Assembly: GCF_021028975.2 (NCBI RefSeq)
Contig: NC_059428.1
Span: 149,048,001-149,112,000, forward strand
Direction: 5' to 3'
From: Sphaerodactylus townsendi
Taxonomy: Eukaryota
DNA: 64,000 bases
This document shows positions 5,545-18,969 of the stretch, one piece after another; position 1 is the stretch's first letter; each line of letters begins with the position of its first letter. The notes under the pieces are model-generated. The model was not told the origin of the DNA. It made no database searches and was given only the letters and a program-made list of their open reading frames with translations. Position numbers and translations under genes: made by a program.

Positions 5545-8500
5545 CTGATGTTATCCAGGAGGAGGTGCTGCGACTCTTTGGTAAGAACCATTGCAAGGGC
5601 GTAAGCCAAGTAGTCCACCTTCCTCTCAGCTGCATACTGCTTCAGGATGGTGAACATCTTCTCTTTCACTTCCGGCTGGTCCCCCAGGATCTCCTGCACC
5701 TGTGCATGAAACAGCCTTCTGAGGAACAAAGGGGCTGGCTTGGGATTCTCTGCCTGCACCAGAAATGACCCCAGATGGCCTGGAAACCCCCAAGGGAACC
5801 ATTGGCCACCATCACTGACATTTCCTGGGTCTTGTCCAGTTCTCAGCCTCCTAGCAATACCAGAAATGTACATGCGGCTTCTAAAAGGAAGTTTCAAGTG
5901 TTTACCCATCTCGAGCTTTGGCCCCCACCCGATCTGAAGCCCTTTTCGCATGAACCCATGAAGCCGTCTTAGAGTGAATCTGATCCTCCCTCCATCAGGA
6001 CCAGTCATGCCTACTCTGACTGGCCACAGCTCTCCGGGGCTTCAGGCAGAGAAAGGTCTTTCACGTCACCTACTGACTGGTTCATTTTTTTGAAAAAGGA
6101 GAGGCCAGGGATTAAAGCTGGGACCCTCCGTGCCCCTCACAGGTGCTCTGCCACAGACCCCTCCCCAGCTTTATTCTTCATGAGCTGTTCTGTGAGGTCA
6201 TGACAAACATCAACGCGGCAACTGTCGGTGCGTGCTGCTTTAGAGAGCTGTTGGGGTTGAACCATCTTGGAAGGCCAAATTTTGCTGCTTGCAAACACCG
6301 TTTAGCCCCACTGTTTGGAAGCCCCCTCGTGGACATGCCCTCCTCGTGTCCAGGACAGCTTCTTGAGCATTCCCATCTCTCACCTCCAGCACCAGAGAGG
6401 GGATAGAAATGGGAATGTGAAGTACAAGATGCCAAGGAGGAGCAGCAAAACTTTGCATAAGGCAGAAGAAAGGAGTCGCAGCCCCTTCCCCAGGTGCCTG
6501 GCCCACTTCGAGGCTCTCCAGAGCCAATTAGCAGCAACAGGCGTTTGCAACCTACATCCTGAAACCGCAAGGTCTACACAGAAATCACGTGATCGGGGCT
6601 GACATTCTCATGAGGCATCAGACACTTGAAGGTGACTCCATCTGGAGCAGCGCCTGTCTCTCCTGCAGCAGCTGCCTCACACGAGGGAGGAAGAGGGTCC
6701 TTTGAATGCCGCAGCCCAGGCAGCCGAGGAGAGAAGGGGTTGTGGAACCCTCCAGGGACATAGCCCACTTCAATCATTTCTGAAAGTTTCACATCTGCAC
6801 GGTCCGCTCTGCTTATCTGTAACTGCTGCTGTGTTCTACGCTGGTCCCAGTTTTGAAAGGAGACAGGTGCGAGTTTTGCAGAGCCCACTGTGACCTGTGC
6901 AAACTGGATTCCGTTTCGTGTCCACAGCAAACTGGGAAAGAAAGGCTTTCTTGCTTGCTTGCTCCTGATCAATCTCGAGGAACCTTATATTATAGCTGTG
7001 AGGGGGCCACAGAGAGGGAGCCTTGGGGAGGGGCCATCCTCAGCATCTCCAATCCACAGAATCATACGGTTGGAAGAGACCCCAAGGGCCATCCAGTCCC
7101 GCCCCCAGCCATGCAGGAACACACCATCAAAGTGCTCCCAATAGATGGCCATGCAGCCTCTGTTGAAAAACCTCCAGAGAAGGAGACTCTGGCAGCCTCT
7201 GAGGCATCGTAGTGCACTGCTAAACAGGCCTTACCACCAACAAGTTCTTCCTAAAGTTTAGGTGGAATATTTTCTTGTAGTTTGAACCCATGACTCCTGG
7301 TCCTAGTCTCCGCAGCAGCAGAAAACAAGCTTGCTCCCTCACCAACATGACATCCCTTCAAATACCTAAACAGGGCTGTCATGTCACCCCTTGGCCTTCA
7401 CGTCTCCAGGCTAAACATGCCCAGCTCCCTAACCTCTCCTCATAGGGCGTGGAATCCAGACCTTCTCCCTCCTCTTGGTCGCCCTCCTCCTCTGGACATC
7501 CTGTAGCTTGTCAATATCCTTCAAAGGCCCAGGCAGTGAGTGGTGGGAAAGACCTGCGCCAGTCTGAGCAAAAAAACACTGGTGGTCTCGGTGGTCTGAT
7601 TTAGGATGGAAGAGGGAGCTGCTCCATGAGAGCCGGTCTGGATCTTGGTGAGCCAGGTGTTGCAAGGACGCCCCCTGTACTAAATCTGTGCTTTAACCTC
7701 TCTAGGGGTGTGGCGCAGGGTGGTAAGCTGCAGTTCTGCAGTCAATAGCTCTGCTCGTGACCTGAGGGAGCAGCGAGGGGCCTTTTTAGTGACTGGGTCA
7801 AGCCAAAGAGGTAAACTAGTGTCAGGAGCTGCCCCTGCTTGTTGTAGCCTTTGCAGAGAAGGGCCGGAAGCAACTGAGATTAACTTCTGGTGCGGATGTC
7901 TCTTTCTCTTTCCCATGGCAGAGACATCAGCCTGGGCTGCTGGAAGGAAGGTGCCTTCTGATACCCAGGTGGCAAAACAGGTGGGGAGATCGTGCGAACT
8001 GGCTCTGCATGACAGACAGTTTCCCCACTGCAGCAAAGGTTCGTCTCTCCCCAGTGGCATACCTGCCTAGGGACAGGGGGTACCCTATGTCCCCGGGCGC
8101 TCCCATTTGGTCATGTGGGGGGGGCGCCACCATTTCAGGGTCGTTTGTGTGTTTATAAATTTTAAGCATTTTTTACGTTTTGGCCTGCAGGGGGCGCCAA
8201 ACTTTCAGGGTACCAAACTAGCGGCACCAAACTTTCAGGGTACCATCCAGAGACTGTCCTGTTGATATCGCCCGAGTTTGGTGATGTTTGGATCAGGGGG
8301 AGCAAAGTTATGGACGCCCAAATGGAATGCCCCCATCCCCATTGTTTTCAGTGGGAGCTAACAGGAGATGGGGGCTACCCATTTGAGGGACCATAACTTT
8401 GGTTCTCCTGAACCTAACTACACCAAACTTGGGTGGCATCATAAGAATAGTTACCAGATGATACCCTGAAATTTGCCGGATGGCTCACTAACACAAAAAT

Positions 8501-11500
8501 ACACCTCTTCCAGGCACCCCAAGAAATTTGCCCAAGATTCTTTGTTTTGCAGTGACTTTGCTCCATTGTAGCCAATGGGGAATTTCTGAGTGTGTAGGCA
8601 GGCTGCACACTTTTGAAGATAGAGGAATCAGACTTTCATGGTGGCTCAGGAGGCCCTCCTGGTAATAGCATCCAGGTTTGGAGACCTTTGCTTCAGGGGG
8701 TTCAATTTTATGGTCCCCCAAAAGGCTTATTTTGTTTCCCCACTCCTGCCCATGAAAGCCTGTGGGCTGAGTTCTCTCAGAACTCTCTCAACTTGCGCCC
8801 CCCCCCCCCACTCCAGAAGCAAAGCTCACCAAGCTTGGATGCTATTACCCAAGACCTCTTGGAGCCACCTTGAAAGTCTGGCGCCTCTATTTTAAAAAAT
8901 GTGTGGTCAGTGCTTACACACTCAGAAATTCCCCAGAATCTGCCAGACTCTTCCGCAAGTTCTGTGGTGGGAAAAATTACTTTTCCCACCATAGACTTCA
9001 ATGGGGCTTTCTGTTATGCCCAGATGGCTCTGTGGTAGAGGTTTCAACAGGAAAAGCACTGTGGTAGAGTCTTGCTCTGGGTGAGGGGCATTTCCTGCAG
9101 GGCTGCTGGTGTGAGTCTCCCTGAAAGGAACCAACCAAAATTTGCTAAAATGTGTGTGGAGAGAGAGAAAATGCTGTGGGCACCAGAGTTTTGGGTGAAC
9201 CTGAGTGCCCACAGCGTGCAGCCATCCCAGAGCGAAACTTTGGCAAAAGTTGGCTGCAGTTCCTTTCGGGAAAGACTTCCACACCAGCCCTGCAGGAAAT
9301 AAGTGCCCCCGCCCAGAGCAAGATTTCCCACTACTACAGTGCCCCTCTGTTGAAACCTCTACCACAACACCATCTGGGCATAACGAAAAGCTTACTGAGA
9401 AGTCTATGGTGGGAAAAAATAATTATTTTTCCCACCATAGAATTTGCTGAAGAGCCTGGCAGATTACCGGGGAAATTCTGAGTGTGATAGCACTGACTCC
9501 TGACCTGAAAATAGAAGCGCCAGACTTTCAAGGTAACTCGAATGGTATCTTTAGTCATAGCATCAGCTAAAGCTTGGTGAGCTTTGATTTTGAGGAGTGG
9601 AGTGAGGGCACGCAGTTAGTTCTGAGAGAACTCAGGCCATCCAGGCTTCATGGGCAGGAGTGGGAAACAAAATAAGCCTTTTGAGGGGGCCCATAAAAAT
9701 GGAACCCCCCAGAAGCAAAGGCCTCCAAACCTGGATGCTATTACCAGGAGGCCTCCTGGAAGGAGCCACCTTGAAGAAGTCTGGTGCCTCTATCTTCAAA
9801 GTAATGTGCAGCCTTATAACACTACACACTCAGAAATTCCCCATTGGCTACAATGGAGCAAAGTCACTGCCAAAACAAGAGAATCTTGGGCAAGATTTCT
9901 TGGGGTGCCTGGAAGGGGTGTATTTTTTAAAGAGCTAGAGTGACACCAAAATTTCAGGGTATCATCTGGTAAACTATTCTTATGATGCCACCCAAGTTTG
10001 GTGGAAGTTAGGTTCAGGGGGACCATGAAGTTATGGTCCCTCAAATGGGAGTAGCCCCATCTCCTGTTAAAGCTCCCACTGAAGAAGCAATGAGGGATGG
10101 GGGGGCATTCCATTTGGAGACGTCCATAACTTTGCTCCCCTGATCAAACATCACCAAACTTGGGTGGTATCATCAGGGCAGTCTCTTGATGATGACCCTG
10201 AAATCATGATGCTGCTAGCTTTAAAAATGCCCTCCCTGCAGGCCAAAAAACACCAAAAATACCCCCCCCCAAAAGCCCAAATACCTTGCATTTGTTCATA
10301 TTTGGGCAGGACATAATCGGACACTTTTTGTCCAAATTTGCCCAAAATTGCCCAGATTCTGGCTGAATTTGTTTCATCTGAATCTCCAACCTTCAAAAGT
10401 GATGCTGTTTTAGGGTAGGGGAGAATCCACCCCCAAACAGCATCACTTTCAATTTTGTTTTAACCGGGGACCCCAGATTCTTCCTTTAAGATGGATTTAA
10501 AAAAGGAATCTGAGCTCCCTAGTTTAAACACCATTGAAAGTGATGCTGTTTGGGGGTGGATTCCACTGGAGGTGTTTTGTGAGAGATGATGCTGACATTT
10601 GTTTGGTAAATGTTTTGCTGGGGGTGATTTGTGAGAGATTTACATGCTTAATACCCACTTGCACTGGCTTGGAGTTGTTTCTCAGGCTAACAACCTACCA
10701 CATAGGGTTGTTGTGATTAGGAAATTAGGAAAAGAATTGGTGGGGAGAGAGCCATGGATGTTTTGCTGGTAGTGGGAGGTGTTTTGTGAGCTGGTGCAAA
10801 AAAATCATTGTTTGTTCATGGTGGGGGAGGGTGGCCGCCCATTTGCAGGGGGGAGGGCGCCAAACTCAGGTTTTGTCCCTGGGCTCCAGTTTGCCTAGGT
10901 TCGCCCCTGTCTCTCCCACAGCTACCAATATCCCAGTGTAGGTCCAGCAGCAAAGCCTAGTTGTACAAACACCTTGAAATGTAGTGGGTCAGATTTAAGT
11001 TCCACGGGCTTGTCAGTCTCCTCGATGCATGCGCAAGGCAAGTTGCCTCTTGATTGTTTTTCAGATGCCTGTGCCATACGATTGCCTGCCTGCGTTTGCC
11101 CTTTCATCTCTTGCAGGGGTCTGCAACCTGCGGCTCTCCAGATGTTCATGGACTACAAATCCCATCAGCCCCTGCCAGCAATGCCAATTGACCATAATGG
11201 CAGGGGCTGATGGGAATTGTAGTCCATGAACATCTGGAGAGCCGCAGGTTGCAGACCCCTGCAGGGAAAGGGAGACCAGCTTAGAAAAAAAGAAAGCAGA
11301 ACATTTAGCAGAAAGGCCTGGAATAGATTATCCCTGAGGCTTCCACAGCCCAGTCTCTTGTGGGAGCTTTCCCACCCACCCCACTAAATGTGTGAATGGT
11401 TCCTTCAGGGGATTTTATGGAAGCATTCCTCCATGCTTCCTGCTGAGTCTAGGTAATTCAAAAAGGGAGAAAGAGACTTTTACTTCCTTTCACTAATCCC

Positions 11501-13611: not shown

Positions 13612-13861
13612 NNNNNNNNNNNNNNNNNNNNNNNNNNNNNNNNNNNNNNNNNNNNNNNNNNNNNNNNNNNNNNNNNNNNNNNNNNNNNNNNNNNNNNNNN
13701 NNNNNNNNNNNNNNNNNNNNNNNNNNNNNNNNNNNNNNNNNNNNNNNNNNNNNNNNNNNNNNNNNNNNNNNNNNNNNNNNNNNNNNNNNNNNNNNNNNNN
13801 NNNNNNNNNNNNNNNNNNNNNNNNNNNNNNNNNNNNNNNNNNNNNNNNNNNNNNNNNNNNN
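13612..13861. other. Assembly gap (250 N)
   Basis: Run of N. Confidence 1.
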
Positions 13862-18846: not shown

Positions 18847-18969
18847 AAACTCGCGGCCCTCCAGATGTTATGGACTACAGTTCCCATCATCCCCTGCCAG
18901 CATGATGCTGGCGGGGATGATGGGAACTGTGGTCCATAACATCTGGAGGGCCGCGAGTTTGACACCTCT
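18847..18969. mobile_element. Palindromic hAT-type MITE, left terminus missing
   Basis: aaactcgcggccctccagatgttatggactacagttcccatcatcccc pairs with ggggatgatgggaactgtggtccataacatctggagggccgcgagttt. It is related to the 11114 MITE. Confidence 0.82.

What the first reader, a model, noticed from the sequence alone, without database searches (positions are those of the whole stretch)
8052..10909. 2.86-kb non-autonomous hAT element carrying a ~2-kb foldback
Seen: a perfect 8-bp TSD (TCTCTCCC) and CAG-starting TIRs define the element. Inside, ~1-kb arms are inverted around a 21-nt spacer centred near 9194 (gctgtgggcac 9173-9183 and gtgcccacagc 9205-9215). One stretch is a perfect 49-bp inverted match (8549-8597 versus 9822-9870). 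The palindrome is off-centre and does not include the TIRs, so it is internal cargo rather than long TIRs. Known: an 8-bp TSD is diagnostic of hAT. Inference: this is an unusually large foldback hAT family that may be undescribed.
Basis: partly seen in the sequence, partly recalled or inferred. Interest (0 to 1): 0.72.

Follow-up and report, generated by a model that had tools for sequence, protein, structure and literature searches.

The report
Jumping palindrome whose arms copy-edit
This is one copy of a young, multicopy cut-and-paste transposon family in a lizard genome that encodes no transposase and carries a 1.9-kb internal palindrome; the same mutations turn up on both arms of single copies far more often than chance, likely because the arms overwrite each other, which would give many natural replicates for studying palindrome repair.

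Summary
Observation confirmed: TSD TCTCTCCC, 13-bp imperfect TIRs, foldback 8178-10248, 21-nt spacer, 49-bp perfect match. The element is one copy of a young non-autonomous hAT family: 32 of 41 two-ended loci have perfect, all different 8-bp TSDs. Transposase-bearing 4.7-8.7-kb hAT elements with perfect TSDs share both ends and part of the tail. The palindrome is family-wide and nested, built on a ~320-bp palindromic module shared with related small hAT elements. Correction: the window's 80% arm identity is probably partly read error (44 small insertions in the right arm, 8 in the left); consensus arms are 96% identical. New: arms co-evolve. Variants seen exactly twice, once on each arm type, sit in the same copy in 15 of 31 and 30 of 49 cases (expected 1.0 and 2.6), and 6 subfamily differences are mirrored (expected 0.6). 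This is likely arm-to-arm gene conversion. Assembly mixing of arms is not excluded for copy-private cases, as no read-level test was obtained.

The parts
8044..8051 (.). Left 8-bp target site duplication TCTCTCCC
8052..8064 (+). Left TIR (13 bp, 10 of 13 match with right TIR)
   Evidence: same ends in sister copies
8052..8125 (+). Left end; family consensus 77-80% identical over 75 bp to left ends of transposase-bearing hAT elements L221, L269/L273, L300
8178..9172 (+). Left arm of the large palindrome
8183..8515 (.). Nested ~320-bp palindromic module P (about 77% self-complementary in the consensus), also the core of 710-850-bp related hAT elements
8576..8935 (.). Nested palindrome P', a diverged relative of P (69% over 126 bp)
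9173..9215 (.). Central 11-bp hairpin with 21-nt loop
9216..10248 (-). Right arm (mirror of left arm); 44-45 small insertions against the subfamily consensus, likely read errors
9468..9843 (.). Mirror copy of P'
9907..10243 (.). Mirror copy of P
10423..10563 (.). Separate 140-bp palindrome in the tail (83%)
10568..10790 (+). Tail segment shared (76-90%) with the region upstream of the transposase in L221, L269, L300
10787..10909 (+). Right end; family consensus 82-88% identical to right ends of transposase-bearing hAT elements; right TIR 10897-10909
10910..10917 (.). Right 8-bp target site duplication TCTCTCCC

Best explanation
This is a copy of a young non-autonomous hAT transposon family with 8-bp target duplications, likely moved in trans by a related DUF4371/Dimer_Tnp_hAT transposase, whose 1.9-kb internal palindrome was likely built by repeated inverted duplication of a 320-bp palindromic module and whose two arms likely overwrite each other by patchy, two-way gene conversion. 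Shown: TSDs, shared ends with transposase-bearing elements, a family-wide nested palindrome, and an excess of mirrored variants. Inferred: mobilisation in trans; the order of duplications; conversion by foldback pairing of single-stranded DNA or by break repair on the opposite arm, for example during gap repair after excision; and the origin of the 1.9-kb size class by deletion between the direct repeats that nested palindromes create across the arms.
For: 32 of 41 two-ended loci have perfect TSDs, all 32 different; 5 more have one mismatch. Median tail divergence from consensus 1.8% (subfamily A) and 2.9% (B). Transposase-bearing L221 (4,745 bp, TSD GATCTCGG), L269/L273 (about 8.7 kb, TSD CACTTGAT) and L300 (about 8.0 kb, TSD ACAGGCAG) share both ends and the tail segment; Pfam PF14291 and/or PF05699 over cut-off in 4 of 4 ORFs tested. 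Consensus arms identical at 846 of 883 (A) and 896 of 938 (B) aligned pairs. Same-copy mirrored variants: 72 against a permutation mean of 17.5 (max 34 in 20,000; 36 copies) and 124 against 41.3 (max 79; 24 copies). Left-right doubletons in the same copy: 15 of 31 and 30 of 49, transversions only 8 of 11 and 18 of 25. Lineage-level mirrored changes in copies with different flanks, e.g. B 304A>C on both arms of all 7 carriers. Six A-versus-B consensus differences are mirrored, 0.62 expected, p=1.5e-5. 14 and 30 tracts of 3 or more switched arm-diagnostic sites, in both directions. The 1.9-kb class joins element positions 884 and 1654-1658 with about 115 bp of overlap in a cross-arm direct repeat.
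Against: All conversion evidence comes from one assembly with visibly error-rich patches (L001, L077, L083, L188, L184, L075); local misassembly or polishing could mix the two arms of a copy. Mirrored variants cluster at arm positions 280-580, where the consensus arms are nearly identical, which fits both conversion and mixing. Most variants are not mirrored (41 of 477 and 78 of 512 distinct variants), and 35 of 41 A-versus-B differences are on one arm only. The transposase-bearing relatives are only 77-88% alike at the ends, and the three with both ends show broken or partial ORFs, so the exact mobilising element is not identified. No empty site was seen.
Confidence: 0.8

Rival explanations
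1. The family and palindrome are real, but the mirrored variants are an assembly or polishing artefact: reads or contigs from one arm were placed on the other arm of the same copy.
For: The assembly has error-rich patches in several copies. Two loci show the left end, plus 290 bp and 11 bp of flank, duplicated in inverted form (L063/L211, L156), which could be foldback chimeras. Mirroring is densest where the arms are most alike.
Against: Mirrored changes are fixed between subfamily consensuses (6 against 0.62) and shared by separate insertions on different contigs (12 variants in A and 15 in B are mirrored in 2 or more copies; B 304A>C in 7 of 7 carriers). A per-locus artefact would have to recur at the same site.
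Confidence: 0.13
2. The arms match because each subfamily was rebuilt by a fresh whole-arm inverted duplication (foldback synthesis), not by piecemeal conversion.
For: The palindrome is hierarchical, so inverted duplication happened more than once; L088 shows a new short palindrome after a deletion.
Against: Arm-specific sites and a 7-bp arm-specific indel persist in both A and B consensuses; switched sites come in short tracts in both directions within single copies.
Confidence: 0.04
3. The palindrome is an independently mobile palindromic MITE inserted into a hAT, like Angel in Tol2.
For: The module occurs in many other loci without this family's exact ends.
Against: In the 18 outside cases scanned, 4 gave a TIR plus 8-bp TSD candidate; three of these were 710-850-bp hAT-type elements with CA-starting ends, of which L062 and L202 share this family's right end, and the fourth (L093) was a weak unrelated TA-ended pair. 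The palindrome's own boundaries were not tested for a separate TSD.
Confidence: 0.03

Closest known systems
Non-autonomous hAT families of the lizard Anolis carolinensis (hobo-N1 to N15_AC, hAT-N) (PMC3014272; passages and section 8 part 1 read)
   Same: 8-bp TSD, YARNG termini, 1.3-3.4-kb young non-autonomous families that differ internally and share ends with autonomous partners
   Different: None of the TIRs in its Table 1 is CAG(T/G)GGCG; 'conversion' and 'hairpin' occur 0 times in the text; its variation comes from captured TEs and inter-element recombination, not an internal palindrome
Tol2 internal inverted repeats / Angel MITE (bioRxiv 10.64898/2026.01.12.699174; passages read)
   Same: hAT element with short TIRs, 8-bp TSD and an internal inverted repeat separate from the TIRs
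   Different: Tol2 IIRs are 302/303 bp, come from an inserted MITE and sit in an autonomous element; the preprint calls them unique to Tol2 among hATs. Here the arms are about 900-950 bp, nested, and co-evolve; 'conversion' occurs 0 times in that text
Galileo and Foldback-type elements of Drosophila (PMC3573991; passages read)
   Same: Long inverted arms up to about 1.2 kb, extension of arms by inverted duplication of internal sequence, recombination and conversion proposed
   Different: P superfamily, 7-bp TSD, the long repeats are the TIRs themselves; conversion is proposed there from chimeric copies, not counted from mirrored variants in the passages seen
TIR-TIR recombination with conversion in Wolbachia ISWpi1 (PMC3004938; passages read); arm-to-arm conversion in sex-chromosome palindromes (PMC11168930 and PMC7023750, search listings only; mechanism recalled)
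   Same: Inverted repeats of one element or locus homogenised by conversion
   Different: 23-bp bacterial TIRs at 2 of 22 loci, or large fixed gene-bearing palindromes; here a 1.9-kb mobile non-coding palindrome repeated at many loci

Membership tests
hAT superfamily, non-autonomous | 8-bp TSD | tested here: met
   32 of 41 perfect, 5 with one mismatch, 4 other
hAT superfamily, non-autonomous | Short TIRs starting YARNG | tested here: met
   CAGTG / CAGGG, 13 bp, 10 of 13 match; a 1.9-kb subfamily starts CACTG on the left; motif from PMC3014272
hAT superfamily, non-autonomous | No transposase of its own | tested here: met
   Longest stop-to-stop frame 166 aa
hAT superfamily, non-autonomous | Shares ends with a hAT-transposase element | tested here: met
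   L221, L269/L273, L300: ends 77-88%, tail 76-90%; PF14291 and/or PF05699 over cut-off
hAT superfamily, non-autonomous | Empty orthologous site | tested here: inconclusive
   No empty site seen; one organism-B contig covers 10883-11137 but has only 27 letters inside the element, under the tool's 31-letter bar
hAT-Tip100 group | Transposase groups with Tip100/Zaphod | not tested
   Homologues are named ZMYM1-like and 52-kDa-repressor-like; the link to Tip100 is recalled; PMC9004415 passages did not confirm it; no tree built
hAT-Charlie group | NTCTAGAN target preference | tested here: not met
   No such consensus in 32 TSDs
Foldback / Galileo type | Long inverted repeats are terminal | tested here: not met
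   Palindrome spans element positions 127-2197 of 2858
MITE in the strict sense | Small size (under about 600-800 bp; recalled) | tested here: not met
   Main classes 1.4-2.8 kb; a few 0.65-0.8-kb derivatives
A catalogued Dfam or Repbase family | Full-length match to a deposited consensus | not testable with these tools
   No TE library is held

The most novel reading that the evidence does not exclude
A vertebrate cut-and-paste transposon has spread a self-correcting, hierarchically nested 1.9-kb palindrome to probably more than a thousand sites; in each copy the arms convert each other fast enough to be seen within 2-3% divergence, and converted masters found new subfamilies: mobile miniature versions of sex-chromosome palindromes.
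Probability: 0.6. Interest if true: 0.65.

Novelty: new variant of a known kind. Interest (0 to 1): 0.52.

Why it matters
Long, near-perfect palindromes are usually unstable, and arm-to-arm conversion is mostly studied at a few fixed loci such as sex-chromosome palindromes (recalled). A young family that places the same palindrome at many unlinked sites gives replicates for measuring conversion rate, tract length, direction, base bias and deletion outcome against position and age. It also shows that large internal inverted repeats in hAT elements are not confined to Tol2, and flags a common source of local assembly error in this genome.

Tried and rejected
Single-copy foldback artefact: rejected, 60 copies analysed. 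Coding cargo: rejected. First partner search with 1.5-kb flanks around 40 hAT-domain hits found no flanking ends; wider windows on 70 loci did. L201/L118 and L205 have left-end-like sequence but no matching element. The intact 967-aa ORF in L294 is 94% like the L221 transposase fragment, but no family end was found near it. PDB search with that ORF: 0 hits. A read-level depth test of mirrored variants was not obtained, so that question rests on the assembly. Orientation check of the centre: 1 of 36 A and 0 of 24 B copies scored as inverted, and that one (L156) is a rearranged locus; the loci were oriented by their centres, so clean centre inversions were not seen but not exhaustively sought. 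Folding energies were computed without shuffled controls and are not used. The ten paper searches gave no listing that describes this family or counts mirrored variants between arms of a transposon's internal palindrome; only listings and passages were seen, subscription journals are missing, and no supplements were opened. The CES1 preprint passages did not address arm-specific read errors, so the long-read-error reading rests on my inference. One search ended in a script error after printing the arm alignment and was rerun.
Full report
Observation. Self-BLAST of the window gives an inverted hit 8178-10248 at 79.7%, E=0. The longest stop-to-stop frame in 7500-11500 is 166 aa. The window lies at G000:C4:149048001-149112000 in a 1.81-Gb genome.

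A family, not a single locus. Searches of G000 gave 14,867 first-look candidates for the whole element, 1,729 for the left end, 2,206 for the right end, and 1,528 and 1,057 for two centre types; only 40 were scored each time, so these are not copy numbers. Of 64 fetched loci screened (the window's own copy included), 41 had both ends. Of these 41, 32 have perfect 8-bp TSDs, all different, 5 have one mismatch and 4 do not match. There is no NTCTAGAN preference. Sizes fall into classes of about 2.7-2.8, 2.4, 1.9, 1.6-1.7, 1.43 and 0.8 kb. Subfamily A (consensus 2,708 bp) lacks about 60 bp right of the centre; subfamily B contains the window copy. Median divergence from consensus in the non-palindromic tail is 1.8% (A) and 2.9% (B), so the family is young.

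Anatomy. In consensus A the palindrome spans 130-2033. Each arm holds a 320-bp palindrome P (135-453), a related palindrome P' (514-870; 69% to P over 126 bp) and a 35-bp hairpin; the tail has another 140-bp palindrome. P is also the core of smaller hAT-type elements of 710, 800 and 848 bp with their own 8-bp TSDs (L202, L207, L062; 3 of 18 outside cases scanned). I infer growth by successive inverted duplication. Palindromes nested in mirrored arms create direct repeats across the arms, and the 1.9-kb class joins the two halves with about 115 bp of overlap in such a repeat, which suggests homology-mediated deletion.

Transposase partner. Pfam searches of G000 gave 20 DUF4371 and 73 Dimer_Tnp_hAT matches. 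Screening 70 windows of 9-10 kb found several with family-like ends around the hit. L221 is 4,745 bp with TSD GATCTCGG, left end 80% over 75 bp, right end 87.5% over 64 bp and 175 bp of the tail at 89.7%. L269/L273 (about 8.7 kb, TSD CACTTGAT) and L300 (about 8.0 kb, TSD ACAGGCAG) are similar. Their transposases are partial or broken, but open frames of 870-1,040 aa of the same clade exist, some with a family-like right end (L291, L295, L296). Four of four ORFs tested pass Pfam cut-offs. Mobilisation in trans by this clade is inferred; the exact source element was not found. The Tip100 label is recalled, not tested.

The window copy's arm divergence is inflated. Against consensus B it has 45 insertions in 9216-10250, 12 in the left arm and 5 in the tail, one of the 5 being an end-of-alignment artefact. 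Counting only those of 4 nt or less gives 44 against 8, with 50 of 67 inserted letters A or G. Most siblings have 0-3 insertion events per 480 nt, but some have similar patches elsewhere (L188 left arm, L184 and L075 tail). Contigs of four public runs mostly lack these letters, for example at 9683, 9775 and 10026, and few contigs fit 9496-9659; those contigs pool all copies, so this is supportive only. Consensus arms match at 846 of 883 (A) and 896 of 938 (B) pairs; median single-copy arm identity is 93.8% and 92.1%, and the window copy is 89.4%.

Arms co-evolve. At sites where consensus arms agree, the same new base on both arms of one copy occurred 72 times in 36 A copies (permutation mean 17.5, maximum 34 in 20,000) and 124 times in 24 B copies (mean 41.3, maximum 79); excluding CpG sites changed little. 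Rows not used: 10 of the 30 loci (7 duplicates of copies already held, 3 lacking an arm) and 8 of the 30 (the window duplicate and 7 lacking much of an arm or rearranged). After dropping 9 further misaligned, rearranged or error-rich copies, including the window's, variants seen exactly twice, once on a left and once on a right arm, were in the same copy in 15 of 31 (A, expected 0.97) and 30 of 49 (B, expected 2.6); for transversions 8 of 11 and 18 of 25. Singletons numbered 332 and 353, so roughly 4-8% of private mutations were copied across. Twelve (A) and 15 (B) variants are mirrored in two or more separate insertions, e.g. B 304A>C in all 7 carriers. Between consensuses A and B, 6 differences are mirrored against 0.62 expected (p=1.5e-5), while 20 are left-only and 15 right-only. 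Arm-diagnostic sites switch in tracts, 14 in A and 30 in B, in both directions; some shared tracts may be one inherited event. The simplest reading is patchy intra-element gene conversion, with converted copies founding sublineages.

Against this reading: everything comes from one assembly with error-rich patches; mirroring is densest where the arms are most alike; two loci have inverted duplications that run into the flank; and no read-level check of mirrored variants was obtained. The consensus-level and multi-copy results are hard to explain by per-locus mixing. The copy-private results could be partly artefact.

Comparison. The element meets the hAT tests that could be run and fails the Foldback/Galileo and Charlie tests. 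Anolis non-autonomous hATs have similar size and age but other TIRs, and the words conversion and hairpin do not occur in that paper (PMC3014272). Tol2's 302/303-bp internal inverted repeats are described as unique among hATs and derive from the Angel MITE (10.64898/2026.01.12.699174). Galileo extends its long TIRs by inverted duplication, with conversion proposed (PMC3573991). TIR-TIR conversion is documented in a bacterial IS (PMC3004938). The ten searches gave no listing on this family. The scan's index held no look-alike stretch and one unrelated note in this genome. Dfam and Repbase were not available.

Verdict. Real, and a new variant of a known kind: a non-autonomous hAT family with an unusually large nested internal palindrome whose arms likely undergo concerted evolution. 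Interest 0.52; higher if accurate reads confirm the conversion.

Noticed in passing
window 11112-11263 and 18847-18960: A 150-bp near-perfect palindromic MITE (CAGGGGTCTGCAACC ends), very abundant in public contigs, with a GTCTAGAC target consensus typical of hAT-Charlie
   Followed up: no
L063/L211 (G000:C5:57874266-57876370): Copy with the left end at both termini and about 290 bp of flank also duplicated in inverted form (94%), inside an older related element; template switch or assembly chimera
   Followed up: partly
L156 693-2669 in element orientation (G000:C1, near 39.05 Mb): Second left-left copy, with 11 bp of inverted flank and an inverted right end just upstream
   Followed up: partly
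L099, L151, L169: A 3.5-kb variant with a further ~920-bp palindromic insert, present at 2 or more loci (L099 and L151 are one locus)
   Followed up: no
L289-L298 (G000 C1, C3, C4, C9): Eight open frames of 680-1,040 aa of the same hAT transposase clade in these ten loci; three of them, and a broken fourth, cluster at C3:12.95-13.05 Mb; recent autonomous copies or domesticated genes
   Followed up: partly
L294 2349-5249 (-), residues 330-967: Close homologues in a sea urchin (63%), ticks (61-62%), a toad (65%) and hagfish (61%), about as close as those of another lizard (61-63%); a patchy spread that may reflect horizontal transfer
   Followed up: no
L062, L202, L206, L207, L249 and flanks of many loci: The 320-bp palindromic module is widespread in older related elements (70-82% identity), so a whole clan of palindromic hAT elements exists in this genome
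   Followed up: partly
window 13612-13861: A run of 250 N
   Followed up: no
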